Source of the DNA: Bacilli bacterium
GTDB taxonomy: Bacteria; Bacillota_I; Bacilli_A; RF39; UBA660
NCBI GenBank assembly: GCA_017887425.1
Contig: JAGHHZ010000028.1
Coordinates: 20,304-84,303 of the forward strand
Reading direction: 5' to 3'
Length of the DNA stretch: 64,000 nt
The position numbers and the translations under genes were made by a program. Positions 21,804 to 64,000 of the stretch are shown piece by piece. The notes under the pieces are model-generated. The model did not search any database and was not told where the DNA came from. It saw only the letters and a list, made by a program, of their open reading frames with translations. Within the stretch, counting starts at the first letter, position 1; each line of letters opens with the position of its first letter.

Positions 21804-23813
21804 ATGAAAAAGTTAGTAAATATTTTATTAGTTTCCATAATTTTGTTTGTTAGCCTAGTTCCACCAATTCGTGCGGAAGAAGTAAGATACGGTTATGTAA
21901 ATTCTACTTCTGGAAATGGTATAAAAGTAAGAAGTGGCCCTGGAACTAGTTATAGTACTTTAAGTGACGGTTTAGCCGAAGGAGAACAAATAAAAATCTT
22001 AAGTGAGCATAAACCTGATGATGGTACTAGTAAAAGCTGTAGTTTATGGTATAAAATTGAATTTGACGAAGTTGATTCAGGAATCGGCTATGCGTGTGCT
22101 GATATGGTTAAAATAATTGAAATTCAAACTGATGAAGATTTTGAAGAAAGTTTAAAAGCATTCCCTGAAAGTTATCATGATGCTTTAAGATTATTACATA
22201 CTATTTATCCTAATGCTATTTTTAAATCATATGATACTAGATTAGATTTTAATACGGTTGTTGAAAATGAATCTTTAGAAGGTCATAGTCTAATTTGGGA
22301 TTCAAATAATTCAAGAGATGGTTTAAAATTAATGGATAGTTATAATTATAAAACCAATAAATTTGCTAATAATTATTCTGGTGGTGGTCCAACTTGGTAT
22401 GCAGCTAATTCTGAAACGATTGCTTATTATCTTGATCCAAGAAATTTCTTAACAGAATCAAGAGTATTTATGTTTGAAAGCCTATCATACAATGCTAGTA
22501 TTCATACTGAAGCTGGTGTGGATGCTATTTTAGCGGGAAGTTTTATGGCTAAAGAAAAAGTTGATGGTGGTGACAAGTCATTTGCTGAAGTTATTATGGC
22601 AGCAGGTAAAAAATATAATATAAGTCCATATTATTTAGCTAGTCGTATTTTACAAGAAACCGGTTATACTAGAAGTGCTTTAGTAAAGGGAGATTATGAT
22701 GGAAAATATGATAAATATGACGGTTATTATAATTTCTTTAACTATGATGCAACTGGTACTGACATAGTAGGTAATGGTTTAGCTTATGCTTATAAAAAAG
22801 GTTGGAATTCGGAAGAAAAAGCGATTATGGGCGGAGCTAGTTTGATTGAATCTGGTTATATTAGTTCTGGACAAGATACAAATTATTTTCAAAAATGGGA
22901 TGTTGTTTGTGATGCTAAAGATTTAGATGATTGTAGCTTTTATTGGCATCAATTCCAGCAAAATATTGAAGCTCCTTATAGTGAGGCTTATAAAACTTAT
23001 GATGGCTATAAAGAAACATTTGATGATAAATTATATACTTTACCATTAATATTTACTATTCCTGTTTATAAAAACATGCCTAAAAAAACATCTTTACCAA
23101 GTGAAGATAATCCAATTAATTATTTAAAAACCTTAACCGTTGATGGTAAGAGTGTAGCTAATTTTAATAGTTTAAAAACAGCTTATACAATTAGTATTCC
23201 AGAAACTAAAAAATCGGTTAAAATAGCGGCGACAAGAATTGAAAGTAGATCTAAGATTACAGGAACGGGAACAATTGAAATAACTAAAGATGGTCAAGTT
23301 ATCCCAATTACGGTAACTGCAGAAAACGGTGATAAGTTAGTCTATAATATTACTGTTAAGTTAACTAAAGTTGATGAAACTGCTATGACTTTAGATGAGA
23401 CGATAGAAAATATTAAATCGGGAATATTTAAAGATGGTTATGTAACGGGTTTAACTAATGTTCAAACAATTTTGGAAGCAATAACAAAAGCTAATGAATT
23501 AGCTGAAGTTAAAGTTTATAATTTAAATAATAAAGAAGTTACTAGTGGTTCAGTTGGTACTGGATATAAAGTAACTATCACAGTTGGTGAAGAAAGTAAA
23601 ACTTTTGAAGTAGTTATCTATGGCGATATTAATGGTGATAGTGAAATAACTGTTTTGGATTTATTAAGAGTACAAAAAGATATCTTAGATATTTCTAATT
23701 TATCAGATGCTCAAGCAAAAGCAGCTGATGTTAGTAAAGATGGAAAAATATCTGCTTTAGATTTATTGAAAGTGCAAAAAGATATACTGGGTATATCTGA
23801 AATTAAACAATAA
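21804..23813 (+). CDS. Secreted peptidoglycan hydrolase: signal peptide + SH3b + GH73 N-acetylglucosaminidase + cadherin-like beta-sandwich + C-terminal dockerin
   Basis: The signal peptide is MKKLVNILLVSIILFVSLVPPIRA. The SH3b domain contains GYVNSTSGNGIKVRSGPGTSYSTL. The GH73 core contains YYLASRILQETGY, YNFFNY and YFQKWD. The module YLKTLTVDGKSV...YNITVKL is cadherin-like. The last 65 aa hold two EF-hand-like dockerin repeats, DINGDSEITVLDLLRVQKDIL and DVSKDGKISALDLLKVQKDIL. Confidence 0.8.
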   Translation: MKKLVNILLVSIILFVSLVPPIRAEEVRYGYVNSTSGNGIKVRSGPGTSYSTLSDGLAEGEQIKILSEHKPDDGTSKSCSLWYKIEFDEVDSGIGYACADMVKIIEIQTDEDFEESLKAFPESYHDALRLLHTIYPNAIFKSYDTRLDFNTVVENESLEGHSLIWDSNNSRDGLKLMDSYNYKTNKFANNYSGGGPTWYAANSETIAYYLDPRNFLTESRVFMFESLSYNASIHTEAGVDAILAGSFMAKEKVDGGDKSFAEVIMAAGKKYNISPYYLASRILQETGYTRSALVKGDYDGKYDKYDGYYNFFNYDATGTDIVGNGLAYAYKKGWNSEEKAIMGGASLIESGYISSGQDTNYFQKWDVVCDAKDLDDCSFYWHQFQQNIEAPYSEAYKTYDGYKETFDDKLYTLPLIFTIPVYKNMPKKTSLPSEDNPINYLKTLTVDGKSVANFNSLKTAYTISIPETKKSVKIAATRIESRSKITGTGTIEITKDGQVIPITVTAENGDKLVYNITVKLTKVDETAMTLDETIENIKSGIFKDGYVTGLTNVQTILEAITKANELAEVKVYNLNNKEVTSGSVGTGYKVTITVGEESKTFEVVIYGDINGDSEITVLDLLRVQKDILDISNLSDAQAKAADVSKDGKISALDLLKVQKDILGISEIKQ

Positions 23814-23830
23814 AGGAGTTGAAGAACATT

Positions 23831-25342
23831 ATGAAAAAACTATATTTATTAATATTTGGAATAATTTTAAGCTTTATTTGTATTAACAATGTTGATGCAG
23901 CAACTGCAAATATAAGTGTTAGCGCATCTAAATCGCGGGTTATTGTCGGTGATACAGTTAATATAACTATCAGATTATCTTCTTCAGCTAATATTGGTAG
24001 TTGGGATTTTAATGTAATTCCATCTTCCAATTTGACTTTAATTGAACGTAGTGATGGGTATGATGGATTAAAAGTCGCGGATGCTGGAGGGGCTTCTACT
24101 AAAAGTAAAACATATACTTTTACTTTTAGAGCAAAATCAAGCGGAACTGGTAGTGTTAAAATTAGTGTTAATGAAATTTATGAGATGACAAATGATGATT
24201 CAACTCCAAAAATGCAAGTGACAACTAATAGCACAAGTTTTACTGTTATGACTCAAAGTCAGTTAGAAGCAAGTTATAGTAAAAATAATTATTTATCTAG
24301 TTTAGAAGTTGAAGGTCAAACTTTAACTCCAAAATTTGATAAAGAAACATTAGAGTATAGTTTAGAATTAGAATATGGAACAGAAAGTATTAATATCATT
24401 ACTGATACAGAAGATTCTAAAGCTAGTGTCGATGGGGATGGAGAAGTAACATTATCTCAAGGAATGAATGCAATAAAAGTTGTTGTTACTGCTGAAAATG
24501 GAAGCACTAGAATATATACTATTAATGCCACAGTTAAAGAATTAGATCCTATTAATGTTAATTTAGATGGAACTAACTATTCTGTTGTAAGAGAAGAAGA
24601 ATTTTTACCGAGTGCTAGTAGTGCTTATCAAAAAACTACTATTCAAATAGATGAAAAAGATGTACCTGCTTATTATAATGAGGTAGTTGATTTTACTTTA
24701 GTTGGTTTAAAAGATAAAGCTGGAAACATTAATCTATATATTTACAAAGATGATAATTATACTTTATATAATGAATTTAACTTTAATCAATTAAGTATTT
24801 ATTTGTTAGATATGGATGAGTCATTAATTCCAAGTGGTTATAAACAAGGAGAAATCACAATCGGTGATAGAGCAGTAACCGCTTATACAAGAGATGGTTA
24901 TGAATTTCCAATTGTCTATGGTTTAAATATTGAAACAGGGGAGAAGAACCTATATAAATATGACGCCAAAGAAAACACTTTACAACGAGTTGAAAATATT
25001 GACTCTAGTAAAGAAAGTTTATATTTTAATATTATTTTAGGTTCGTTTGGATTTACGGCTGTATCTTATTTATTCTTTATTAATTTATTAAGTAAGAAAA
25101 ATAAACAACAAAGAGAATTTTTAGAAAAAACAATGCAGATGAATATTAGTGATATCAAAATGAATAAGGACTTAGGCGATGAATTATATAAGAATACGGC
25201 ATTATCAAGAAAACAAATGAAACAAAAGAAAAAAGAAGACAAGAAAGCTTTAAAACAACAAAAGAAAGAAGCAAAAAAAGATAAAAAGACATCTAAAAAA
25301 AATAAAGATAGCAAAAATAAAGATGAAATGGCTGAATTATAG
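23831..25342 (+). CDS. Membrane-anchored cohesin-like protein (signal peptide + cohesin-like domain + cadherin-like domain + TM + Lys-rich tail)
   Basis: The signal peptide is MKKLYLLIFGIILSFICINNVDA. A roughly 125-aa beta-rich module follows (ANISVSASKSRVIVGDTVNITIRLSSSANIGSWDFNVIPSSNLTLI...GTGSVKISV) with the cohesin pattern. The module YLSSLEVEGQTLTPKFDKETLEYSLE...RIYTINATV is cadherin-like. The TM segment is LYFNIILGSFGFTAVSYLFFINLL, followed by a K-rich tail. The start was taken at ATG 23831, 12 nt after AAGGAG. Confidence 0.65.
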   Translation: MKKLYLLIFGIILSFICINNVDAATANISVSASKSRVIVGDTVNITIRLSSSANIGSWDFNVIPSSNLTLIERSDGYDGLKVADAGGASTKSKTYTFTFRAKSSGTGSVKISVNEIYEMTNDDSTPKMQVTTNSTSFTVMTQSQLEASYSKNNYLSSLEVEGQTLTPKFDKETLEYSLELEYGTESINIITDTEDSKASVDGDGEVTLSQGMNAIKVVVTAENGSTRIYTINATVKELDPINVNLDGTNYSVVREEEFLPSASSAYQKTTIQIDEKDVPAYYNEVVDFTLVGLKDKAGNINLYIYKDDNYTLYNEFNFNQLSIYLLDMDESLIPSGYKQGEITIGDRAVTAYTRDGYEFPIVYGLNIETGEKNLYKYDAKENTLQRVENIDSSKESLYFNIILGSFGFTAVSYLFFINLLSKKNKQQREFLEKTMQMNISDIKMNKDLGDELYKNTALSRKQMKQKKKEDKKALKQQKKEAKKDKKTSKKNKDSKNKDEMAEL

Positions 25343-35460: not shown

Positions 35461-35483
35461 AAACTTCCCCAAAAGGGAAGTTT
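35461..35483. terminator. Bidirectional terminator between the small ORF and glmS
   Basis: AAACTTCCC-caaaa-GGGAAGTTT with flanking A and T tracts. Confidence 0.75.
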
Positions 35484-37231
35484 TATTCTACTGTAACTGA
35501 CTTAGCTAAATTTTTAGGCTTATCGATATCACAATTTCTTGCTTTGGCTACATAATAAGCAATTAATTGAATTGGAATAATGGTTAGTAAAGATTGAAAT
35601 AATTTATTATCTGGAATAATTATTTTTTCATCATAAAAATCACCTTCTTCATCTAAAGAAGTAGTAGTGATATAAATAACTTTTGCGCCTCTTGCTTTAG
35701 TTTCTTTAATATTACTAATTGTTTTATCCTTTAATTCTTTATCTGTTACAATCGCTATTACTTTTGTATTATTTTCAATTAAAGAAATAGTTCCATGTTT
35801 TAATTCACCAGCTTGGTAAGCTACACTATTAATATAAGAAATTTCTTTTAATTTTAGTGAACCTTCCAAAGCTAAAGCATAATCGATACCTCTTCCAATA
35901 TAAAATATTTTTTCGTCATCTTTAATTAAATCAGCTATTTTTCTATAGTCATTTTTTAATACTTTATTTAAGTCGTTAATTAAATTATCAAATTCGTTTA
36001 TGATATTTTTAGTTTTTGAATTATAGTAAGCAATTAAACTTAATATAGCTACTTGACAACTATAAGCTTTAGTTGTCGCTACCGCTATTTCTAATCCGGC
36101 GTTTGTATAAATAACATCTTTTACTTCTCTTGCAATCGAAGAATCGATGACATTGATAATTCCTAAAGTATCACAATTATTTTTAACTTTTTTCACACAA
36201 GCTAAAGTATCAGCTGTTTCACCAGATTGCGAGATAAAAATAACTAATGTTTTTTTATTGATAAAATTGTTTTGATAACGATATTCACTAGCGATTTCTA
36301 CTTTTGTTTCAATATGACAATATTTTTCAATTAAATATTTGCCAATTAATCCTGCATGATAAGCACTACCACAAGCAACAATATGAATTTTTTGATACTT
36401 TTTGATATTTGGTAATTTTTGTTTATTATTTAAAAAAGGAAGTAGAGTATTTTTAATAACTTCTGGTTGCTCGTATATTTCTTTTAGCATGTAGTGTTCA
36501 TAATCCTGTTTTGAAATATCTTCGATACTACCATTATAAGTATAAGTCTTTTTATTTAAAATATTTAATCTTTCATTATAGATAGTTATATTATCTTTAG
36601 TTAAATGAGCAATCTCATTATCGTTTAATAATATATATTTATCTGTATGTTTTAAAATGGCTGGAATATCACTAGCTATAAATGTACCATCATCACTTTT
36701 AGCAACTATCAAAGGACTACCTTTTTTAACTGCATAAATGCTATTTAAATCATCATTTACAATAATACCTAAAGCATAACTACCTTTAACTAATTCACTT
36801 AATTTGGCTAATACTTTAATTATATTATGACTTTCTTGATATAATTTATCGATTAGACAAGCTAATACTTCAGTATCAGTTTCACTTTTAAACGAATATT
36901 CTGTTAATAGTTTTTTTAACTCCTGATAGTTTTCAATAATCCCATTATGAACTAGGGTAATACTACCTTGCTGATGGGGATGAGCATTGATTTTATTAGG
37001 ACTACCGTGAGTTGCCCATCTTGTATGGCCGATACCTAAATAAGTATCGGTATTTTTATCTATTAGGTTAATTAAATTACTTAATTTACCTTTTTCTTTA
37101 ATTATATTTATTTTATCAGTTACATAAGCGATACCACTTGAATCATAACCGCGGTATTCTAAACTAGCTAGACCTTCTAAAATGATCGGGATAGCTTTTT
37201 TCTTACCGACATAACAATAAATTCCGCACAT
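35483..37231 (-). CDS. glmS: Glutamine--fructose-6-phosphate aminotransferase (isomerising)
   Basis: The Ntn start MCGIYCYVG is at ATG 37231 after the SD GGAGG. It contains HTRWATHG, two SIS domains and the KSVTVE end. The track's longer start (37276) runs into the ribozyme. Confidence 0.96.
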   Translation of the reverse strand: MCGIYCYVGKKKAIPIILEGLASLEYRGYDSSGIAYVTDKINIIKEKGKLSNLINLIDKNTDTYLGIGHTRWATHGSPNKINAHPHQQGSITLVHNGIIENYQELKKLLTEYSFKSETDTEVLACLIDKLYQESHNIIKVLAKLSELVKGSYALGIIVNDDLNSIYAVKKGSPLIVAKSDDGTFIASDIPAILKHTDKYILLNDNEIAHLTKDNITIYNERLNILNKKTYTYNGSIEDISKQDYEHYMLKEIYEQPEVIKNTLLPFLNNKQKLPNIKKYQKIHIVACGSAYHAGLIGKYLIEKYCHIETKVEIASEYRYQNNFINKKTLVIFISQSGETADTLACVKKVKNNCDTLGIINVIDSSIAREVKDVIYTNAGLEIAVATTKAYSCQVAILSLIAYYNSKTKNIINEFDNLINDLNKVLKNDYRKIADLIKDDEKIFYIGRGIDYALALEGSLKLKEISYINSVAYQAGELKHGTISLIENNTKVIAIVTDKELKDKTISNIKETKARGAKVIYITTTSLDEEGDFYDEKIIIPDNKLFQSLLTIIPIQLIAYYVAKARNCDIDKPKNLAKSVTVE

Positions 37232-37244
37232 ATTTTCCTCCATG

Positions 37245-37392
37245 ATTAAAAAAGTGCGTAATATATTTTTTGTCATAATCTTGATTTTATGGTTTGTAAT
37301 ATATTTGCGAGAGCACGTTCCCGTAACAGTATCCGCCGAATCTTTCGATAAACTGTTAACCTCGTCAACTTTTTTAGTCCTGGCGCTAACAA
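37245..37392 (-). ncRNA. glmS: glmS ribozyme (GlcN6P-dependent self-cleaving riboswitch)
   Basis: The minus strand reads AGCGCCAGGACTAAAAAAGTTGACGAGGTTAACAGTTTATCGAAAGATTCGGCGGATACTGTTACGGGAACGTGCTCTCGC. This matches the conserved core (AGCGCCAG...GACGAGG...CGAAA...UCGGCGGAU) of the Bacillus glmS ribozyme. It lies immediately 5' of glmS. Confidence 0.9.
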
Positions 37393-37530
37393 AATAACTT
37401 TACCTCCATTAGTTATTAAGTTTTATACAACTATTATACGATATTTTAGTAATTTTGATAATAATTTAATGTCAAATAGTTGTAATTATAAGTCAATAAA
37501 ACTCCCAAAATATCTGGAGTATCTAATATA

Positions 37531-38394
37531 TTATAATAGGCGACTTATTTGTTTTTTACTTAATTTAGTTAATTTAGCTATTAAGTCGATGCTCATTCCT
37601 TCAGCCAACATATTTTTGGCAATATCTAAAATGCCTTTTTTTTCGCCTTCAATTAATCCAATCTTTTTACCTTTTTTTTCGCCTTCGATTAAGCCAACTT
37701 TTTTGCCTTCTTCTTTGCTTTGTTCAATTAAAGCATCTTGATACATTTTTCGCTCTTCTTCAGCCGTAAACCAACTAATTACTTCATCATCATTGTTAAC
37801 TTCATCAACTTTCTTTTTATATTCCATAACTTTATCACTCCTTTCAGCTAATTCAGCTAATTCTTCTTTGCCTAAACCTAACATGATAATTAGTTCATCA
37901 TTATTTTTAAACTTCTTACCATTATTATAATAATCATTAACATAAAAATCTACATTTATGTTGAAGATTGTTAAAATATCGGTTACTATTAGTTTCTTTT
38001 GCTTACTATATAGTCCTAGTTCGTCTTTCTTATATCCGTGACAATTAAAATTTAGATTTATTTGAATTATTTTTTTATTAGAATTATAAACTTTTTTGCC
38101 TTTTTCCGCTTTACTACCACATAGTTTAAAAACATAGAAAAGATTACGTGTGAAAATAAGTTTATCGAATTTAGAATTCAATTCAACATTAATATATTCA
38201 TTATTTGTGTTTATTAATAAATCTAATTTTTGAATGCGATTATTTATTTTATCAGTAACTAAATTAGGATTTAAAATATTCATATTTTCGATTTTTCTTT
38301 CTAATATTTTTTCTAATAAATCTTTTAATAATTGTCTATTATTTAAAAAGACATACATAAAAACTACCTCATGCTTAGCAGTATAATATTTCAT
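37531..38394 (-). CDS. Rpn-family recombination-promoting nuclease / putative transposase (PD-(D/E)xK, YhgA-like)
   Basis: It opens HEVVFMYVFLNNRQLLKDLLEKIL, contains LDLLINTNNEYINVELN and IQINLN, and has a C-terminal EEG..G..EG..KG repeat followed by AKNMLAEGMSIDLIAKLTKLSKKQI. All of this is typical of the Firmicute Rpn/'transposase_31' family. The SD GAGGAGGTG lies upstream. Confidence 0.75.
   Translation of the reverse strand: MKYYTAKHEVVFMYVFLNNRQLLKDLLEKILERKIENMNILNPNLVTDKINNRIQKLDLLINTNNEYINVELNSKFDKLIFTRNLFYVFKLCGSKAEKGKKVYNSNKKIIQINLNFNCHGYKKDELGLYSKQKKLIVTDILTIFNINVDFYVNDYYNNGKKFKNNDELIIMLGLGKEELAELAERSDKVMEYKKKVDEVNNDDEVISWFTAEEERKMYQDALIEQSKEEGKKVGLIEGEKKGKKIGLIEGEKKGILDIAKNMLAEGMSIDLIAKLTKLSKKQISRLL
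37637..37708. repeat. 36-bp tandem duplication inside the Rpn-family gene
   Basis: TCGCCTTCAATTAATCCAATCTTTTTACCT at 37643 matches TCGCCTTCGATTAAGCCAACTTTTTTGCCT at 37679, an offset of 36. These encode GKKIGLIEGEKK and GKKVGLIEGEKK. Confidence 0.8.
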
Positions 38395-50888: not shown

Positions 50889-51040
50889 TTTTTATTCCTC
50901 CATTCTTTAATTATTATATCATGATTTTGAAAATTTAAAAGTAAAATTTATGATTAAAAAGTGTCAAAAAGATTAAAATGTCATCATAAATAATGTATTT
51001 TAAGAAAAAAATGTTATAATAATAAATGAAGGTGGTTAAG

Positions 51041-52363
51041 ATGAATCAAATAATTATTATACTAGCTAAAATAGCTAGAGCAATATTACATTCTTTAGGA
51101 AGAGGAACAGCTTTTCCTGGTAAGTTAGCTTTGAAACTTAATAAAAACATATTAAACTTTTTTGAGATGCCAAAAACGACAATTTTTGTTACAGGAACAA
51201 CTGGTAAGACAAGTGTAGTAGGAACAATTTATGAAGTTTATAAACATAGTGGTTATAAAGTTGTTAGCAACATTAAAGGTTCAAATTTGATTGATGGTGT
51301 GACAACTGCAATAATAGAGGCTAGTAATATAAACGGTAAAACTAAAGTTGATGCTTTAGTTATTGAAGTTGATGAAAGATATGTAAAAGAAGTATTTAAA
51401 TATATTACTCCTAAATACTTTATAATTAATAATTTATCTCGTGATCAATTAGCCCGTAATGGTCATTTTGAATTGGTTTTTAACGAGATAAATAGAAGTA
51501 TTAATGAGAAAACTCATTTAATATTAAATGCTGATGATCCATTAGTAATTAAATTTAGTTTAAATAAAAAAAATAAAATAACTTATTATGGCTTAAAAGA
51601 AAATAAATATTCAACGAAAAAAAACAAAATCGATACTCTAGATTTAACTTATTGTCCAAAATGTCATAAAAAATTAATTTTTGATTATTTTAATTATGGT
51701 AACTTAGGGTATTATCACTGCCCAAATCACGATTATGATCGGCCTATTTGTGATTTTGAAGCAACTTTATTAAAAGATAAATTTGAAGTAGAAGATGTAA
51801 CAATAAAACTAAATAATGATGCTTTATATAATGTATATAATATGTTAGCTTGTTATTCTGTTTGTAGAGTTGATAAAGTAAAACAAGAAGATATTGTGAA
51901 CTCATTAAATCAACTATCTCTTAAAGTAAAAAGATTAAATGAATTTAAAATAAATGATAATAAAGGAGTAATCTTATTAAGCAAGAATGAAACACCACTA
52001 TCTTATAATCAGTCTTTAGAATATATCAAAGATAAAAAAGGTAGTAAAACAGTAGCCATTGGTTTTACAAGAATTAGTGGCCGTTATGATTTAAAAGATT
52101 TGTCTTGGATCTATGATATAAACTTTGAACTTCTTAATGATAAAAGTATCGAAAGAATAATTTTAATCGGTCCTTTTGCTTATGATTTAGGAGTCAGATT
52201 AAAGCAAGCTAATATTGACCCTAAAAAGTTTATGTATTGCCTAGACTATAAAAATTCTTTAGATTTCTGTTTAAAAAATGTTAAAGGCGATTTATATTGT
52301 GTTTTATATTTTGATTTAAATTATTTATATTTAGACCAACTAAAAGAAAGAGGTTTATTATGA
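51041..52363 (+). CDS. murT: Lipid II isoglutaminyl synthase subunit MurT (Mur-ligase-like, DUF1727 C-terminus)
   Basis: P-loop VTGTTGKTS, NLSRDQLARNGH, the Cys-rich ribbon YCPKCHKKL...YHCPNHD, and a C-terminal domain. It is paired with a GatD-like gene by a 4-nt ATGA overlap. The start was taken at ATG 51041 after GAAGGTGG and the TGtTATAAT box at 51012-51020. Confidence 0.85.
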   Translation: MNQIIIILAKIARAILHSLGRGTAFPGKLALKLNKNILNFFEMPKTTIFVTGTTGKTSVVGTIYEVYKHSGYKVVSNIKGSNLIDGVTTAIIEASNINGKTKVDALVIEVDERYVKEVFKYITPKYFIINNLSRDQLARNGHFELVFNEINRSINEKTHLILNADDPLVIKFSLNKKNKITYYGLKENKYSTKKNKIDTLDLTYCPKCHKKLIFDYFNYGNLGYYHCPNHDYDRPICDFEATLLKDKFEVEDVTIKLNNDALYNVYNMLACYSVCRVDKVKQEDIVNSLNQLSLKVKRLNEFKINDNKGVILLSKNETPLSYNQSLEYIKDKKGSKTVAIGFTRISGRYDLKDLSWIYDINFELLNDKSIERIILIGPFAYDLGVRLKQANIDPKKFMYCLDYKNSLDFCLKNVKGDLYCVLYFDLNYLYLDQLKERGLL

Positions 52364-53019
52364 GAATAGCTTATTTATATTATGATTTTCTCAACTTATA
52401 TGGTGAATCAGGTAATATAAAAATTATCGATAATGTTTTAAAAAGTAATAAAATCAAACATGAAATTTTATATTTATCTTTAGATGATGAATTAGATTTT
52501 GACAGTTATGATTTAGTTTACATTGGAAGTGGAACCGAAGAAAATCAAAAAATTGCGTTAAAACATTTGATGAATTATCAAGAAGATATAAAAAGATACA
52601 TTGAAGATAATAAATTTATGCTAGTGACTGGTAATAGTGTTGATATGTTTGGAGAAAAAATAATTGCCGACGAAGAATATGATGGGCTAGGAGTATTTGA
52701 TTATACTATTACTAGAGGAAAAAGAAAAATGGAGGAAGTTTATCTTGATAGTGAAATAACAAAACATAAGATCTTGGGATTTATTAATAACAATAGTTAT
52801 ATTGATGAAATAAACTTTCCTTTATTTAAAGAAGAAGGCGTTAAATATAATAATTTTTATGCCACTTATATTTTAGGCCCTATTTTAGTTAGGAATCCTG
52901 ATTTTGTTAAATATTTTTTAAATAATTTAACAGGTAAAAAATTGAAATATGATTTGAAATTAGAGACTAAAGCTTATAATGAATTTGTTAAAAATTTTAA
53001 GGAGGAAGTTTGTGAATAA
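52360..53019 (+). CDS. gatD: GatD-like (CobQ/CobB-type glutamine amidotransferase-like) partner of MurT, lacking the catalytic Cys and His
   Basis: NLYGESGNI, DLVYIGSGTE and TYILGPILVRNP align with S. aureus GatD as I recall it. The nucleophile position reads LVTGNSVDMFG rather than TICGGYQFLG. The only Cys in the protein is the penultimate residue. Confidence 0.75.
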   Translation: MRIAYLYYDFLNLYGESGNIKIIDNVLKSNKIKHEILYLSLDDELDFDSYDLVYIGSGTEENQKIALKHLMNYQEDIKRYIEDNKFMLVTGNSVDMFGEKIIADEEYDGLGVFDYTITRGKRKMEEVYLDSEITKHKILGFINNNSYIDEINFPLFKEEGVKYNNFYATYILGPILVRNPDFVKYFLNNLTGKKLKYDLKLETKAYNEFVKNFKEEVCE

Positions 53020-53512
53020 CGTAGTTGAAGCAGTTATTGAAATACCATTAAAAACCAAAAATAAATTTGAAATCGATAAAAAAACTAAACGTATTAAATT
53101 AGATCGAGTTCTTTATTCGGCGATGAGTTATCCAGCTGAATATGGTTATATTGAAAATACTTTAGCTAAAGATGGAGATCCATTAGATATTTTAGTTATT
53201 TCAAGTGAACCAACTTTCCCGGGATGCATTGTCCCAGCGAGAATAATTGGTTACTTATCGGTTGTCGACAATGGTCATGAAGATTATAAATTAATTTCAG
53301 TAGTAGATGTTGACCCACGATATAGTGAAATCAAATATTTAGACGATTTATCAGATTTTACATTAGATGAAATCAAAAATTTCTTTCAAAATTATAAAAC
53401 TTTACAAAATATTGAAGTTAAAGTTTATGACTATCACGATTCTACGAAAGCTTTAGAGTTGATTAGTGAATGCCAAAAAAGATATGAAGAAAATGCTAGA
53501 AAAAATGATTAA
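53012..53512 (+). CDS. ppa: Inorganic pyrophosphatase (family I)
   Basis: GTG 53012 after the SD AAGGAGGA. It contains VIEIP, KFEIDK, YPAEYGYIENTLAKDGDPLDILV and DYKLI. Confidence 0.92.
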   Translation: MNNVVEAVIEIPLKTKNKFEIDKKTKRIKLDRVLYSAMSYPAEYGYIENTLAKDGDPLDILVISSEPTFPGCIVPARIIGYLSVVDNGHEDYKLISVVDVDPRYSEIKYLDDLSDFTLDEIKNFFQNYKTLQNIEVKVYDYHDSTKALELISECQKRYEENARKND

Positions 53513-56856: not shown

Positions 56857-58527
56857 ATGAAAAAAATAATATTTATAATTTTTACATTTTTGTTTTGTAC
56901 AAGTACAGCTTTAGCTACTAATCACATTTATGATATCGATATGGAAATATATGTTGATAAAAACGGAACGGCCTCTATTACTGAAACATGGGTAGTGGAT
57001 GGAAGCGATGGCACTGAATGGTATAAAGTATATAATAATTTAGGTAACTCAGAAATAACCGATTTTACTGTGTCGATGGATGGTAATCCTCTAACTTACA
57101 AAAAGTGGGATGTCGATGAATCATTGAGTGAAAAAAAAGGCTACTATGGAATAAATTATACTTCTAATGGATTAGAACTTTGTTTTGGAAAATATGATTA
57201 TAAACGTCATGAATTTACGTTGAACTATAAAATATCTAATTTTATTTTAAATACTAGTGACTATCAAGTTATTTATTGGAATTTGATAGATAGATTATCT
57301 TCTGTTGATTTTGAAAACTTTTCTATTGTTTTATCTAGTTACTATGAATTTCCTAATGATTTACCAGTTTGGGGATATGGACATAAAGGTTATGCTTATG
57401 TAGAAAATGGGAAAATATATCTATCAAACGAAGGGGATATGAATGGTCAATATGTTGTTTTATTAGCGCAATTTCCTTTAAATACATTTAATACAACTAA
57501 TAGTAGTTCACGTTATGATACATTTGACGACGTACTAGCAGCTGCAGAAAATGGTTCTTTTGATTACGATTACTCATATGACGACAGTAGCGACATTAAC
57601 CCGATTTTTGGCATGTTTATAATCATTTATACATTTTTTATGATTTCCTTACCTTTCATATTAATTCGTATTTTAACAACTTCAAGTAAATATGGCTTTA
57701 TCAATAACAAAACTATTACTAAACAAAATACACCTTATTTTAGAGATATTCCATGTAATAAAGATATCTATTATGCTAATGCTTTAGTTAAATTAAATGG
57801 TTTTAGTAAATCTAAATCTAATATTTTAGGAGCTATTTTACTTAAGTGGGTTAAAGAGAAAAAAATAAACGTTATTAAAAACGAAAAAAATACTCAGCTA
57901 CAATTTGATGAAAATATGATTCTTTCTGATGTTCTAGAAGACGAATTATATCAAATGATGTATAAAGCTAGTAAAGATGGAATTTTAGAAAATAAAGAAC
58001 TAGAAAAATGGGCTAAAAAGAATTATAGTAAATATTTAGATATTTTTAGTAGAATAGAAGATAGTAAAATAGCTGAATTAAGACATGCTGGACATATTTA
58101 TAGAAGGCAAAACAAAAGCGAATGTAAATATAAAAATGTCATGGATGATATTTTGTATGAAGATTCTAGAAAACTATATGGTTTGAAGTTGTTTTTAGAA
58201 GATTTTTCTTCGATTAATACCAAAGAAGTAATTGACGTTCATCTATGGGATGAATATTTGATGTTTGCTTACCTTTTTGGTATTGCCGATAAAGTAGCTA
58301 AGCAATTAAAGAATATGTATCCTGAATATATTGAAAATTTAGATAATAACATTGATTTTGACACGATTATTTTCTTTAATGCTATTTCAACCAGATCAAT
58401 TTCAGCAGCTAATAGCGCTCGAGCAAGTGCACAATCTTATTCTTCTTATTCATCTGGTGGTGGGGGATTCTCATCAGGTGGAGGAGGAGGCGGTTCCTTC
58501 GGTGGAGGAGGCGGAGGAAGCCGTTGA
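56857..58527 (+). CDS. DUF2207-like membrane protein with a Gly-rich C-terminal tail
   Basis: It has a signal peptide, an extracellular beta-rich N-domain, TM segments, a cytoplasmic region (HLWDEYLMFAYLFGIADKV) and the tail SGGGGFSSGGGGGGSFGGGGGGSR, which is characteristic of this family. Confidence 0.7.
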   Translation: MKKIIFIIFTFLFCTSTALATNHIYDIDMEIYVDKNGTASITETWVVDGSDGTEWYKVYNNLGNSEITDFTVSMDGNPLTYKKWDVDESLSEKKGYYGINYTSNGLELCFGKYDYKRHEFTLNYKISNFILNTSDYQVIYWNLIDRLSSVDFENFSIVLSSYYEFPNDLPVWGYGHKGYAYVENGKIYLSNEGDMNGQYVVLLAQFPLNTFNTTNSSSRYDTFDDVLAAAENGSFDYDYSYDDSSDINPIFGMFIIIYTFFMISLPFILIRILTTSSKYGFINNKTITKQNTPYFRDIPCNKDIYYANALVKLNGFSKSKSNILGAILLKWVKEKKINVIKNEKNTQLQFDENMILSDVLEDELYQMMYKASKDGILENKELEKWAKKNYSKYLDIFSRIEDSKIAELRHAGHIYRRQNKSECKYKNVMDDILYEDSRKLYGLKLFLEDFSSINTKEVIDVHLWDEYLMFAYLFGIADKVAKQLKNMYPEYIENLDNNIDFDTIIFFNAISTRSISAANSARASAQSYSSYSSGGGGFSSGGGGGGSFGGGGGGSR

Positions 58528-62787: not shown

Positions 62788-64000
62788 CTATTTGTCATCT
62801 TTTAAAATCCAACCAATTCTACTAATTCCGTTTCTAAATAATGAATTTTGGGAATTCAATTCACAATAGATTTTTCTTATAATATTTATATGATATTCTT
62901 CTAACTTTTTGAATGCTTCTCCAATTTCTTTTTGTTTATCAAATGGGATAATAGGAATCGGAAGTTCTTTAAAGGTAGTAAGGTTAACTTTTTTTGATTT
63001 AGCATTTGCCATATTATCATTATTAGCCCATGTGCGAAAGTAGTCTGATTCAAGTATATTTCTTAAATAATATGGATCTATAACATTTCTGTCATATTTA
63101 ATGATGTAAATATTTTCGTTGAAACCAATGTTATTATAAGGTTCTTCAATAACAACGGTTTTTATATCATGTTCGCCGACAGCAAAAAGAATGTCTCCAA
63201 TTTCAATGTTGGTTTCTTTTTTGATAAATTCAAGGGATTTTTTGTCCATTCTGTCAGTTTTTTTATTAGGATAAATTCTTCCGTTTTCCATTTCGGCTGC
63301 TGATATATATAAATATTCTCCAGTCTTACTAACATTTAATTTACTTTTTCTAACACCATTTGCAATTCTTATTATTGAATCATCTTTCATCCGTCCTGCT
63401 TTAACATATTGAATATTAGTTTTACATAGTAATTTCATGTCTTCTATAAAATATGTAAATTCTCTAAGGTCTTTTAGAAAATAATGACGTTGAATATCAA
63501 TCTTTTCGTGGTATAAATTATCCGTCTCGTCTGAAATATCAATTGGTTTTATATCATACTCTTTTGCTTCAATTTTGTGTTCATAAGGGATGTATTTTTT
63601 TAGCTCTAAAGAGTAATTATTTCTAACTATTTCCTCTAAGGTTGCTAGATGTGACATCTTTCCATCGGTTTTTCTCAATTTTACGTATGATGTTATTAAG
63701 TCAATATCTGAGTCACGTAGTATGTTCTTTTTTCCGTCTTGACTAAATATGTTTTCTGCATTAACAAATAATATATTGTTGTTGTCCTTATTCTTTCTAA
63801 TAACCATCATACAAACTTCTTTTGAAACATTAGCAAACAAATTATCAGGAAGATAAATTATTGTATCTATAAGATTTTGTTCAACTAGATATTTCCTTAT
63901 TGATGTTTCTACTTGATTAGTTCTTGATAACATGTTAGGTGTATCAATAACAACTGCAACGCCATTTTCATTTAAACTGTATATAATCGGATATATAAAT
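62788..64000 (-). CDS. N6-adenine DNA methyltransferase C-terminal region fused to a single HsdS-like target-recognition domain (5' end outside the window)
   Basis: The frame stays open upstream of the track's Met to position 64000 (..NENGVAVVIDTPNMLSR..). The segment KYLVEQNLIDTIIYLPDNLFANVSKEVCMMVI...NNYSLELKKY resembles the tail of type I/IIG gamma-class methylases. The distal half has HsdS hallmarks: GDILFAVGEH, DPYYLRNILESDYF and LPIPIIPFDKQKEIGEAFKKLEEY. Confidence 0.6.
   Translation of the reverse strand, partial: FIYPIIYSLNENGVAVVIDTPNMLSRTNQVETSIRKYLVEQNLIDTIIYLPDNLFANVSKEVCMMVIRKNKDNNNILFVNAENIFSQDGKKNILRDSDIDLITSYVKLRKTDGKMSHLATLEEIVRNNYSLELKKYIPYEHKIEAKEYDIKPIDISDETDNLYHEKIDIQRHYFLKDLREFTYFIEDMKLLCKTNIQYVKAGRMKDDSIIRIANGVRKSKLNVSKTGEYLYISAAEMENGRIYPNKKTDRMDKKSLEFIKKETNIEIGDILFAVGEHDIKTVVIEEPYNNIGFNENIYIIKYDRNVIDPYYLRNILESDYFRTWANNDNMANAKSKKVNLTTFKELPIPIIPFDKQKEIGEAFKKLEEYHINIIRKIYCELNSQNSLFRNGISRIGWILKDDK

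What the first reader, a model, noticed from the sequence alone, without database searches (positions are those of the whole stretch)
52360..53019. GatD partner of MurT has lost both glutaminase catalytic residues
The gene is translationally coupled to murT by an ATGA overlap and aligns along its length with S. aureus GatD as I remember it.

At the nucleophile position, S. aureus has TICGGYQFLG (Cys94). This protein has LVTGNSVDMFG, with Gly91 at that position, encoded by GGT 52630-52632. At the His position, S. aureus has GTYLHGPIL (His189). This protein has ATYILGPIL.

The only Cys in the whole 219-aa protein is the penultimate residue. A class I amidotransferase cannot hydrolyse glutamine without that Cys. 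Either lipid II amidation here uses free ammonia through MurT alone with a structural pseudo-GatD, or the pair has been repurposed or is decaying. MurT itself keeps an intact P-loop.
Basis: partly seen in the sequence, partly recalled or inferred. Interest (0 to 1): 0.65.

Follow-up and report, generated by a model that had tools for sequence, protein, structure and literature searches.

The report
Glutaminase-dead GatD partner of MurT
The cell-wall amidation enzyme pair MurT/GatD in this gut bacterium carries a GatD subunit that cannot split glutamine, and this is the conserved state of a large, undescribed family in uncultured gut and rumen Firmicutes that most likely uses free ammonia instead.

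Summary
ORF 52360..53019 is a GatD homologue, translationally coupled to murT by an ATGA overlap. It has Gly91 where S. aureus GatD has Cys94 and Leu172 where it has His189.

It is not a local loss or decay.
- Every relative examined has Gly at the Cys position and I/L/T/V at the His position. These are 120 close homologues, 149 of the top 150 representatives clustered at 50% identity, 120 profile hits and 82 genomic loci.
- All keep an almost invariant T-G-N elbow.
- dN/dS is 0.13-0.26.
- All 82 loci have murT directly upstream.
- The AlphaFold model (pLDDT 96.8) matches GatD crystal structures at TM 0.88.

The scaffold, the MurT-interface residues, the lid Tyr and the Arg128 equivalent are retained. 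The partner MurT keeps its ATP, acceptor and "negative gate" residues, but it replaces the canonical N-D-N-A-A-D motif with S-R-[RK]-Y.

Hosts are uncultured gut and rumen Bacilli ("Mollicutes-like") and Clostridia.

The best explanation is ammonia-dependent lipid II amidation with an obligatory, remodelled pseudo-GatD. The precedent is the S. aureus GatD C94G mutant. A repurposed ligase that adds another amine cannot be excluded. I found no paper describing this family. I rate it a new variant of a known kind, of moderate to high interest.

The parts
50927..50954 (+). Promoter-like site (TTGAAA-16-TATGAT) in the intergenic region upstream of murT
   Evidence: Consensus scan, 10 of 12 matches. 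This is weak evidence because the region is AT-rich: 45 sites were found against 30 expected.
51026..52363 (+). murT-like Mur ligase (445 aa as listed; the likely true start is ATG 51041, giving 440 aa)
   Evidence: Pfam Mur_ligase_M plus MurT_C. PDB best hit is S. aureus MurT, E=7e-56. NCBIfam MurT equivalog scores 211 bits against a cut-off of 800. The L001 ortholog is 440 aa.
51194..51214 (+). MurT P-loop G57-T-T-G-K-T-S63
   Evidence: Read directly from the sequence. Conserved as G-[ST]-x-G-K-[TG]-S in 80 of 82 partner MurTs.
52073..52117 (+). MurT C-terminal-domain segment I350-S-G-R-Y-D-L-K-D358-L-S-W-I-Y-D364. A subfamily-specific S-[RG]-[RK]-Y motif replaces the canonical N-D-N-A-A-D-G-R. 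It is followed by the retained interface Asp (equivalent to Sa D349) and the S-W-x-[YW]-D gate.
   Evidence: Alignment to S. aureus MurT. Conservation across 82 partner MurTs: S351 81/82, Y354 81/82, position 358 D58/E24, W361 82/82, D364 81/82.
52360..53019 (+). gatD-like gene: a glutaminase-dead CobQ-type class I amidotransferase fold (219 aa)
   Evidence: AlphaFold model pLDDT 96.8. Foldseek best hit is S. aureus GatD 6h5e_A, TM 0.88.
52627..52638 (+). Nucleophile elbow T90-G91-N92-S93, where canonical GatD has I-C-G-G. GGT 52630-52632 sits at the Cys94 position.
   Evidence: Gly at this position in 127/127 representatives, 82/82 loci and 121/121 profile hits.
52864..52896 (+). T169-Y-I-L172-G-P-I-L-V-R-N179 loop. 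Leu172 (TTA 52873-52875) sits at the His189 position.
   Evidence: Position 172 is I/L/T/V/S across the family. G173, P174 and N179 are invariant.
53012..53512 (+). Family I inorganic pyrophosphatase. It probably starts at GTG 53012, overlapping the gatD-like stop by 8 nt, and is co-oriented in the same operon in this clade only.
   Evidence: Pfam Pyrophosphatase E=3.6e-53. An AGGAGG site lies at 53000-53005. The same gene order occurs in L001-L007. It is probably not functionally part of the system.

Best explanation
The pair is a lipid II D-iso-glutamate amidating complex whose GatD subunit is a conserved pseudo-glutaminase.

**Proposed mechanism.**
- MurT activates the alpha-carboxyl of D-iGlu of lipid II with ATP, as canonical MurT does.
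- The nitrogen is not released from glutamine. It comes from free NH3/NH4+, which is abundant in the gut and rumen habitats where this family is found.
- The GatD-like protein is kept because MurT needs it as an obligatory structural partner.
- Its remodelled former active-site pocket (T90-G91-N92, E/D95, R122, lid Y14), together with the acidic gate of MurT (D/E358, D364), probably still forms the entry or capture site for the nitrogen nucleophile.

**Shown here.** The catalytic Cys and His are lost. The fold, the interface and the MurT catalytic residues are retained. The gene is under purifying selection. It is invariably coupled to murT. The window encodes peptidoglycan synthesis genes.

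**Inferred.** That the substrate is lipid II, that the donor is ammonia, and that the pocket plays this role.
For: 1. **No canonical glutaminase chemistry.**
- Gly replaces Cys94 and a hydrophobic residue replaces His189 in every family member examined.
- S. aureus C94G/S/A and H189A mutants are dead for glutamine use.

2. **Direct experimental precedent.** S. aureus MurT with GatD-C94G, the same substitution, keeps NH3-dependent lipid II amidation at pH 8.5. MurT alone is inactive with any donor.

3. **The gene is functional.**
- dN/dS is 0.13-0.26, against 0.08-0.20 for murT and 0.06-0.12 for ppa.
- The AlphaFold model has pLDDT 96.8, and GatD crystal structures are the best fold matches at TM 0.81-0.88.

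4. **MurT-interface and scaffold residues match canonical GatD.** These are Y14, G15, G18, N19, D51, G56, G58, G98, R122, G140, F141, N143, G173, P174, L176 and N179.

5. **The partner MurT keeps its functional residues**:
- the P-loop;
- E114, D116 and E117;
- acceptor-carboxylate Asn87;
- the R139-D-Q..R144 loop and K320;
- the acidic gate and Trp facing GatD.

6. **Genomic coupling.** murT lies immediately upstream in 82 of 82 loci, and there is no conserved third gene that could supply a glutaminase.

7. **The organism makes peptidoglycan.** The window holds a PBP2x-like gene, murG, murB, divIB, ftsA, ftsZ, and glmS with its ribozyme.

8. **Habitat.** All 80 genome hits are gut or rumen MAGs, and these habitats are ammonia-rich (established knowledge).

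9. **The invariant Gly fits the structure.** The nucleophile position has a strained backbone conformation (Phi 49.5, Psi -114 in S. aureus GatD).
Against: - No biochemical or muropeptide data exist for any member.
- In S. aureus the NH3-dependent activity was seen only at pH 8.5, not at pH 7.5, so extra adaptation must be assumed.
- The former pocket is remodelled rather than relaxed. T90, N92 and E/D95 are newly conserved, and R122 is kept.
- MurT has gained an invariant S-R-[RK]-Y motif next to the interface Asp. A merely structural subunit would not obviously need either change, which leaves room for another ligand or donor.
- I could not check whether the same genomes hold a second, intact gatD.
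- Both proteins score far below the NCBIfam equivalog cut-offs.
Confidence: 0.5

Rival explanations
1. Repurposed ligase. The divergent MurT and pseudo-GatD attach a nucleophile other than ammonia to the activated carboxyl of the stem peptide. Candidates are an amino acid, an amino-acid amide or a diamine, as in alpha-carboxyl-substituted or group-B cross-linked peptidoglycans. The former glutamine pocket and the MurT S-R-[RK]-Y motif would bind that nucleophile.
For: - Both sides of the interface are remodelled and then conserved. GatD-like has T90, N92 and E/D95 in place of I, G and Q, and keeps the substrate-capturing Arg and the lid Tyr.
- MurT replaces N-D-N-A-A-D with S-R-[RK]-Y plus a 2-residue insertion, and K-N-P-A-G with K-[HN]-E-N.
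- This MurT segment corresponds to the amino-acid-binding motif of MurE. S. aureus MurT could replace MurE in vitro.
- Both proteins fall far below the equivalog cut-offs.
Against: - The family spans many lineages of Bacilli and Clostridia. No common unusual substituent on residue 2 is known for them (my own knowledge, not tested here).
- The basic S-R-R-Y motif is equally well explained as recognition of the free carboxylate of meso-diaminopimelate in the stem peptide.
- The narrow acidic gate of MurT is retained.
- No extra gene for making a special nucleophile is conserved nearby.
Confidence: 0.2
2. Non-canonical amidohydrolase. The complex still liberates ammonia from glutamine or another amide, using a different nucleophile. 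Candidates are the near-invariant Thr90 next to the old Cys position, or Ser351 of MurT inserted in trans.
For: - T90 is T/S/C in 121 of 127 representatives and T in 82 of 82 loci.
- The glutamine-capturing Arg and the lid Tyr are retained.
- MurT S351 and Y354 are invariant next to the interface Asp.
- 31 of 82 loci have a His two residues before the old His position.
Against: - No general base is conserved across the family. The window protein has Tyr170 and Leu172, and none of its His residues is conserved.
- Thr90 occupies the residue before the elbow tip. Its neighbours do not fit the small-x-Nu-x-small pattern.
- S. aureus C94S is inactive.
- No class I amidotransferase fold with a Thr nucleophile is known to me.
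Confidence: 0.12
3. Sensor subunit. The GatD-like protein still binds glutamine without hydrolysing it, and so tunes an ammonia-dependent MurT to nitrogen status.
For: - The pocket architecture is retained: R122, Y14, N143 and G56/G58.
- The organism still runs glutamine-dependent chemistry, since GlmS keeps its Cys1.
Against: - The idea is purely inferential.
- Q98, which contacts substrate in class I amidotransferases, is replaced by E/D, and the oxyanion residues are changed.
- There is no precedent in MurT/GatD.
Confidence: 0.07
4. Decaying pseudogene, or an assembly or sequencing error at the catalytic codons.
For: None beyond the absence of Cys and His.
Against: - The reading frame is intact, and the same residues occur in hundreds of independent assemblies.
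- dN/dS is 0.13-0.26.
- The predicted fold is of very high confidence.
Confidence: 0.01

Closest known systems
Canonical MurT/GatD lipid II isoglutaminyl synthase (S. aureus 6GS2/6H5E, S. pneumoniae 6FQB, S. pyogenes 9SQ9)
   Same: - Two-gene murT-gatD operon with overlapping stop and start.
- GatD fold with the extra C-terminal helix (TM 0.81-0.88).
- MurT central domain, MurT_C domain and Zn-ribbon insertion.
- P-loop, Mg and acceptor residues, the interface Asp (Sa D349) and the Trp/Tyr-Gly contact.
- Lid Tyr and the Arg128 equivalent.
   Different: - GatD lacks Cys94 (Gly), His189 (Leu/Ile/Thr) and Gln98 (Glu/Asp), and the elbow G-G is replaced by N-[SA].
- MurT lacks the N-D-N-A-A-D motif and has S-R-[RK]-Y instead.
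- Identity to canonical proteins is only about 25% for GatD and about 30% for MurT.
- Both proteins fall far below the NCBIfam equivalog cut-offs.
S. aureus GatD C94G laboratory mutant (Munch et al. 2012, PMC3266927)
   Same: Same residue change at the nucleophile. The mutant complex with MurT has lost glutamine-dependent amidation of lipid II but keeps ammonia-dependent amidation, and GatD is still required.
   Different: - It is an engineered single substitution in an otherwise canonical pocket.
- It was active only at pH 8.5.
- The natural family has additional conserved changes on both subunits.
Ammonia-dependent carbamoyl-phosphate synthetase I of ureotelic animals (established knowledge, not tested here)
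   Same: A glutamine amidotransferase-type enzyme that has lost the catalytic Cys of its class I glutaminase domain. It keeps the dead domain as a structural part and uses free ammonia.
   Different: - It has a different synthetase (ATP-grasp) and a fused domain rather than a separate subunit.
- It is eukaryotic and is activated by N-acetylglutamate.
Archaeal 'MurT-like' proteins without GatD (Leonard et al. 2025, PMC11915815)
   Same: Divergent MurT relatives that evidently work without a glutaminase.
   Different: Those proteins have no GatD partner at all. Here the partner is always present and conserved.

Membership tests
GatD (glutaminase subunit of lipid II isoglutaminyl synthase) | CobQ-type class I amidotransferase fold with an extra C-terminal helix | tested here: met
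   Pfam GATase_3 scores 43.9 bits against a cut-off of 27. The AlphaFold model has pLDDT 96.8 with helix 200-218. GatD chains are the nine best PDB matches at TM 0.81-0.88, while other class I amidotransferases reach about 0.6.
GatD (glutaminase subunit of lipid II isoglutaminyl synthase) | Encoded directly downstream of murT | tested here: met
   ATGA overlap in the window. murT lies directly upstream in 82 of 82 loci.
GatD (glutaminase subunit of lipid II isoglutaminyl synthase) | Catalytic Cys (Sa C94) in the nucleophile elbow | tested here: not met
   Gly91 in the window. Gly is found at this position in all relatives examined.
GatD (glutaminase subunit of lipid II isoglutaminyl synthase) | Catalytic His (Sa H189) | tested here: not met
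   Leu172 in the window. The position is I/L/T/V across the family.
GatD (glutaminase subunit of lipid II isoglutaminyl synthase) | Glutamine-capturing Arg (Sa R128) and lid Tyr (Sa Y17) | tested here: met
   R122 is kept in 107/127 representatives and 80/82 loci. Y14 is kept in 120/127 and 82/82.
GatD (glutaminase subunit of lipid II isoglutaminyl synthase) | Curated equivalog score (NCBIfam NF045636 / NF052463) | tested here: not met
   83.7 bits against a cut-off of 400, and 73.2 bits against 450.
GatD (glutaminase subunit of lipid II isoglutaminyl synthase) | Glutamine hydrolysis coupled to lipid II amidation | not testable with these tools
   This needs an enzyme assay.
MurT (Mur-ligase-like subunit) | Mur_ligase_M and MurT_C domains, P-loop, Mg and acceptor residues | tested here: met
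   Pfam domains. PDB best hit is MurT at E=7e-56. G57..S63, E114/D116/E117, N87 and the R139-D-Q..R144 loop are conserved.
MurT (Mur-ligase-like subunit) | Cys-rich Zn-ribbon insertion | tested here: met
   C210, C213 and C232 are conserved in 81/82. The fourth ligand is H235 in the window and Cys in 68/82 relatives.
MurT (Mur-ligase-like subunit) | Interface Asp completing the triad (Sa D349) and the S-W-x-[YW]-D gate | tested here: met
   D358 in the window (D 58, E 24 across relatives). S360 and W361 are kept in 82/82 and D364 in 81/82.
MurT (Mur-ligase-like subunit) | D-N-A-A-D-type motif preceding the interface Asp | tested here: not met
   It is replaced by [VI]-S-[RG]-[RK]-Y with a 2-residue insertion.
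MurT (Mur-ligase-like subunit) | Curated equivalog score (NCBIfam NF052464 / NF045635) | tested here: not met
   211 bits and 198.6 bits, both against a cut-off of 800.
Pseudoenzyme (catalytically dead homologue kept by selection) | Catalytic residues absent, but sequence under purifying selection and fold intact | tested here: met
   See for the missing residues. dN/dS is 0.13-0.26. Model pLDDT is 96.8.

The most novel reading that the evidence does not exclude
The divergent MurT and the Cys-less GatD-like protein form a new kind of lipid II-modifying ligase. The former glutaminase pocket, together with the MurT S-R-[RK]-Y loop, has become a binding site for a nucleophile or nitrogen donor other than glutamine-derived ammonia. 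Two versions are possible. In one, the site binds an amino acid or diamine that is ligated to the stem peptide. In the other, a composite active site with a non-Cys nucleophile is formed. Either way, the product would be a peptidoglycan chemistry not yet assigned to any enzyme, in uncultured gut Firmicutes.
Probability: 0.2. Interest if true: 0.85.

Novelty: new variant of a known kind. Interest (0 to 1): 0.62.

Why it matters
- **Essential enzyme and drug target.** MurT/GatD is essential in S. aureus, S. pneumoniae and M. tuberculosis and is being pursued as a narrow-spectrum drug target. A widespread natural family that has no glutaminase chemistry would show that peptidoglycan amidation can run on free ammonia in vivo.
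- **A natural experiment on GatD's second role.** It would show what GatD does for MurT besides making ammonia.
- **Selectivity of inhibitors.** Inhibitors aimed at the GatD cysteine would be predicted to spare many gut commensals.
- **Annotation.** These proteins are currently called 'glutamine amidotransferase' or 'hypothetical protein'.
- **Wall-bearing relatives of Mollicutes.** Uncultured lineages with 1.1-1.5 Mb genomes keep the pair, which suggests it is important to them.
- **If the pair has been repurposed.** It would point to an unassigned peptidoglycan modification.

Tried and rejected
- **Decay or sequencing error.** Rejected.
- **A conserved third gene beside the pair** (separate glutaminase, transporter). 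Clustering the ORFs within 3.5 kb in 81 loci found only variable housekeeping neighbours.
- **Cultured members, to link to known wall chemistry.** Two cluster look-ups and a profile search returned only MAG-derived entries, named 'glutamine amidotransferase', 'hypothetical protein' or 'CobQ-like'.
- **A diverse canonical GatD set.** The profile search returned almost only streptococci. This was enough for a contrast but not for a rooted tree.
- **NJ tree.** One split separates all 32 canonical from all 128 Cys-less sequences. Midpoint rooting falls inside the very diverse Cys-less group and says nothing about direction.
- **Family size from the profile search.** The count of 2582 hits at E<=1e-20 cannot be used, because canonical GatDs also reach 160-193 bits on that profile. 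Only the 120 hits listed, all at 302 bits or more, were checked, and all are T-G-N.
- **MurE in the loci, to decide Lys or mDAP type.** None was present.
- **Second gatD.** None in the 64 kb window.
- **Literature.** Four searches and six papers gave no description of a Cys-less GatD.
- **Pocket geometry.** The structure tool returns no coordinates, so the pocket and the position of Thr90 could not be inspected.
Full report
**1. The observation**

ORF 52360..53019 (+) encodes 219 aa. Its ATG overlaps the TGA of the upstream 445-aa ORF (51026..52363) in an ATGA.

The upstream protein has the Mur_ligase_M and MurT_C domains. The ORF itself matches GATase_3.

Against PDB sequences, the best hits are S. 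aureus GatD (E=3e-18), then S. pyogenes and S. pneumoniae GatD. The printed alignments put query L-V-T-G91-N-S-V-D-M-F-G against L-T-I-C94-G-G-Y-Q-F-L-G, and T-Y-I-L172-G-P-I-L against T-Y-L-H189-G-P-I-L.

GGT at 52630-52632 encodes Gly91 and TTA at 52873-52875 encodes Leu172. The single Cys is residue 218. The MurT P-loop (G57-T-T-G-K-T-S63) is intact.

**2. Not a local accident**

Four independent samples of relatives give the same picture.
- All 120 closest homologues (67-97% identity, from independent assemblies) keep T-G-N-S-x-D-[ML]-F-G and T-Y-[IV]-L-G-P-I-L-V-R-N.
- In an exhaustive search of a library clustered at 50% identity, 149 of the best 150 representatives have T-G-N-[SA]-x-E-x-[FL]-G, with no Cys and no His at the two positions. 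These reach down to 33% identity and E about 1e-24.
- Among 127 full-length representatives, Cys94 is Gly in 127, and His189 is I/L/T/V/S/N.
- A profile search gave another 120 members, all with T-G-N.

On a profile built from this family, members score at least 300 bits, while canonical GatDs score 160-193 bits. An NJ tree has one split separating all canonical from all Cys-less sequences.

**3. Functional, not decaying**

dN/dS between the window gene and six orthologues is 0.13-0.26. This is close to murT (0.08-0.20) and ppa (0.06-0.12).

An AlphaFold model built on 45 family members has mean pLDDT 96.8. Its nine best PDB matches are GatD chains (TM 0.81-0.88, E down to 2e-19). Other class I amidotransferases reach only about 0.6.

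**4. What is kept and what is changed in the GatD-like protein**

These positions are conserved in the family and identical to canonical GatD: Y14 (lid/plug Tyr, Sa Y17), G15, G18 (contact with the MurT Trp), N19, D51, G56, G58, G98, R122 (Sa R128, the glutamine-capturing Arg), G140, F141, N143, G173, P174, L176 and N179.

The conserved differences cluster at the old active site:
- I93 becomes T90 (82/82 loci);
- C94 becomes G91;
- G95 becomes N92;
- G96 becomes S/A;
- Q98 becomes E/D;
- H189 becomes a hydrophobic residue.

The invariant Gly fits the strained backbone angles reported for the nucleophile position. So the pocket has been remodelled and then held fixed. It has not been relaxed.

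**5. The partner MurT**

In 82 of 82 loci murT lies immediately upstream.

The partner MurTs keep all of the following (roles taken):
- the P-loop;
- E114, D116 and E117;
- Asn87, which binds the acceptor carboxylate (Sp N85);
- the R139-D-Q..R144 loop and K320;
- the Zn ribbon;
- the acidic gate facing GatD: D/E358 (equivalent to Sa D349), S360, W361, W/Y363 and D364.

They differ from canonical MurT just before the interface Asp. N-D-N-A-A-D-G-R is replaced by x-x-[VI]-S-[RG]-[RK]-Y, with a two-residue insertion (S351 and Y354 in 81/82). K-N-P-A-G becomes K-[HN]-E-N.

A canonical Clostridial pair (P0245, locus L083) keeps the canonical MurT motifs, so the MurT changes go together with the Cys-less GatD. 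Both window proteins score far below the NCBIfam equivalog cut-offs: 83.7 against 400 for GatD, and 211 against 800 for MurT.

**6. Who has it, and in what context**

A scan of one genome per species found at least 591 relatives. The best 80 are all gut or rumen MAGs:
- uncultured Bacilli;
- 'Tenericutes', 'Mollicutes' or 'Mycoplasmatota' bins;
- Candidatus Faecisoma and Candidatus Coprovivens;
- Erysipelotrichaceae, Ruminococcus, Oscillospiraceae, Acutalibacteraceae, Lachnospiraceae and Saccharofermentans.

Members also sit on single contigs of 1.13 and 1.49 Mb.

The window is 27.6% GC. It encodes a PBP2x-like transpeptidase, MurG, MurB, DivIB, FtsA, FtsZ, and GlmS behind a glmS ribozyme. The organism therefore makes peptidoglycan. 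GlmS keeps its Cys1, so glutamine-dependent chemistry has not been abandoned in general.

No third gene is conserved next to the pair. The window holds no second GatD homologue.

**7. Mechanism**

Munch et al. showed that S. aureus MurT with GatD-C94G loses glutamine-dependent amidation but keeps NH3-dependent amidation, and that MurT alone is inactive with any donor. This explains both the loss of the catalytic residues and the strict retention of the subunit and its interface.

The habitats are ammonia-rich (established knowledge). Ammonia-dependent carbamoyl-phosphate synthetase I, which keeps a Cys-less glutaminase domain, is a well-known parallel (established knowledge).

Two points limit my confidence to about 0.5. 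The S. aureus NH3 activity was seen only at pH 8.5. And both sides of the interface have been remodelled and then conserved, which suggests the site still binds something. A plausible refinement, which is inference, is that T90/N92/E-D95 together with the MurT acidic gate capture NH4+.

**8. Rivals**

- **A ligase that adds another amine or amino acid to the stem peptide (0.2).** The MurT motif change sits at the position equivalent to the amino-acid-binding motif of MurE, and S. aureus MurT can replace MurE in vitro. However, the basic S-R-R-Y motif could simply recognise the free carboxylate of meso-diaminopimelate.
- **A non-canonical hydrolase with Thr90 or MurT Ser351 as nucleophile (0.12).** No general base is conserved, although 31 of 82 loci have a His two residues before the old position.
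- **A glutamine-sensing subunit (0.07).**
- **Decay or error (0.01).**

**9. Novelty**

Papers on MurT/GatD structure, distribution and phylogeny describe Cys94 and His189 as conserved and do not mention a Cys-less group. Four full-text searches found nothing.

Databases call the members 'glutamine amidotransferase', 'CobQ-like' or 'hypothetical protein'. No NCBIfam or Pfam model is specific for them.

I rate this a new variant of a known kind. It is a conserved pseudo-glutaminase form of MurT/GatD, with a co-diverged MurT.

**10. Limits**

- There is no biochemistry for any member.
- No cultured member was identified.
- Whole genomes could not be searched for a second gatD.
- No model coordinates were available to inspect the pocket.
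- Canonical sampling was too narrow for a rooted tree.

Noticed in passing
L083 6001-6702 (GCA_045538875.1, JAZQEG010000002.1): A canonical, Cys-bearing GatD (A-I-C-S-G-Y-Q) has Tyr instead of the catalytic His (T-Y-I-Y-G-P-L-L-P-K-N-P). Its MurT partner is fully canonical (GTNGKTT, N-D-N-P-S-D-G-C-D). It may be a second, independent way of altering the triad.
   Followed up: partly
31 of 82 loci, e.g. L016, L022, L025, L038 (GatD-like ORFs): Many Clostridial members of the Cys-less family carry His two residues before the old His position (T-H-L-T-G-P). The window clade has Tyr there. It is unexplained whether this His, together with the invariant Thr90, has a role.
   Followed up: partly
window 53012-53512 (+): A family I inorganic pyrophosphatase probably starts at GTG 53012, behind AGGAGG at 53000-53005, and overlaps the gatD-like stop by 8 nt. 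The order murT, gatD-like, ppa is shared only by the closest relatives (L001-L007).
   Followed up: partly
window 51026-51043 (+): murT more likely starts at ATG 51041 than at 51026. The Shine-Dalgarno sequence AAGGTGG lies at 51029-51035, and the orthologue in L001 is 440 aa.
   Followed up: partly
window 51653-51730 (+), MurT residues 210-235: The fourth ligand of the MurT Zn ribbon is His235 in the window (C210, C213, C232, H235). 68 of 82 relatives have Cys at that position.
   Followed up: no
window 21804-25342 (+): Two adjacent genes encode a 669-aa protein with a C-terminal type I dockerin domain and a 507-aa protein with a cadherin-like domain. This is unexpected in a 27.6% GC, small-genome 'Mollicutes-like' Bacilli lineage.
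   Followed up: no
window 35483-37398 (-): A glmS ribozyme (37250-37398, 63.9 bits) lies upstream of glmS. The listed ORF start is too far upstream: the true start is the ATG of M-C-G-I, so the catalytic Cys1 is intact.
   Followed up: partly
window 56857-58527 (+): A 556-aa secreted or membrane protein has no family match. It ends in a Gly-rich tail (SSGGGGFSSGGGGGGSFGGGGGGSR).
   Followed up: no
window 37531-38394 (-) and 62788-63933 (-): The window holds a PD-(D/E)XK transposase-family gene, and a fused N6-methylase / type I specificity-domain gene near the window end.
   Followed up: no
L084 (OW818670.1, 1,494,278 bp) and L001 (ERZ28756714 contig_10664, 1,134,481 bp): Two very long single contigs of small-genome relatives carry the Cys-less pair. 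They are the natural genomes for testing whether any second gatD exists.
   Followed up: no
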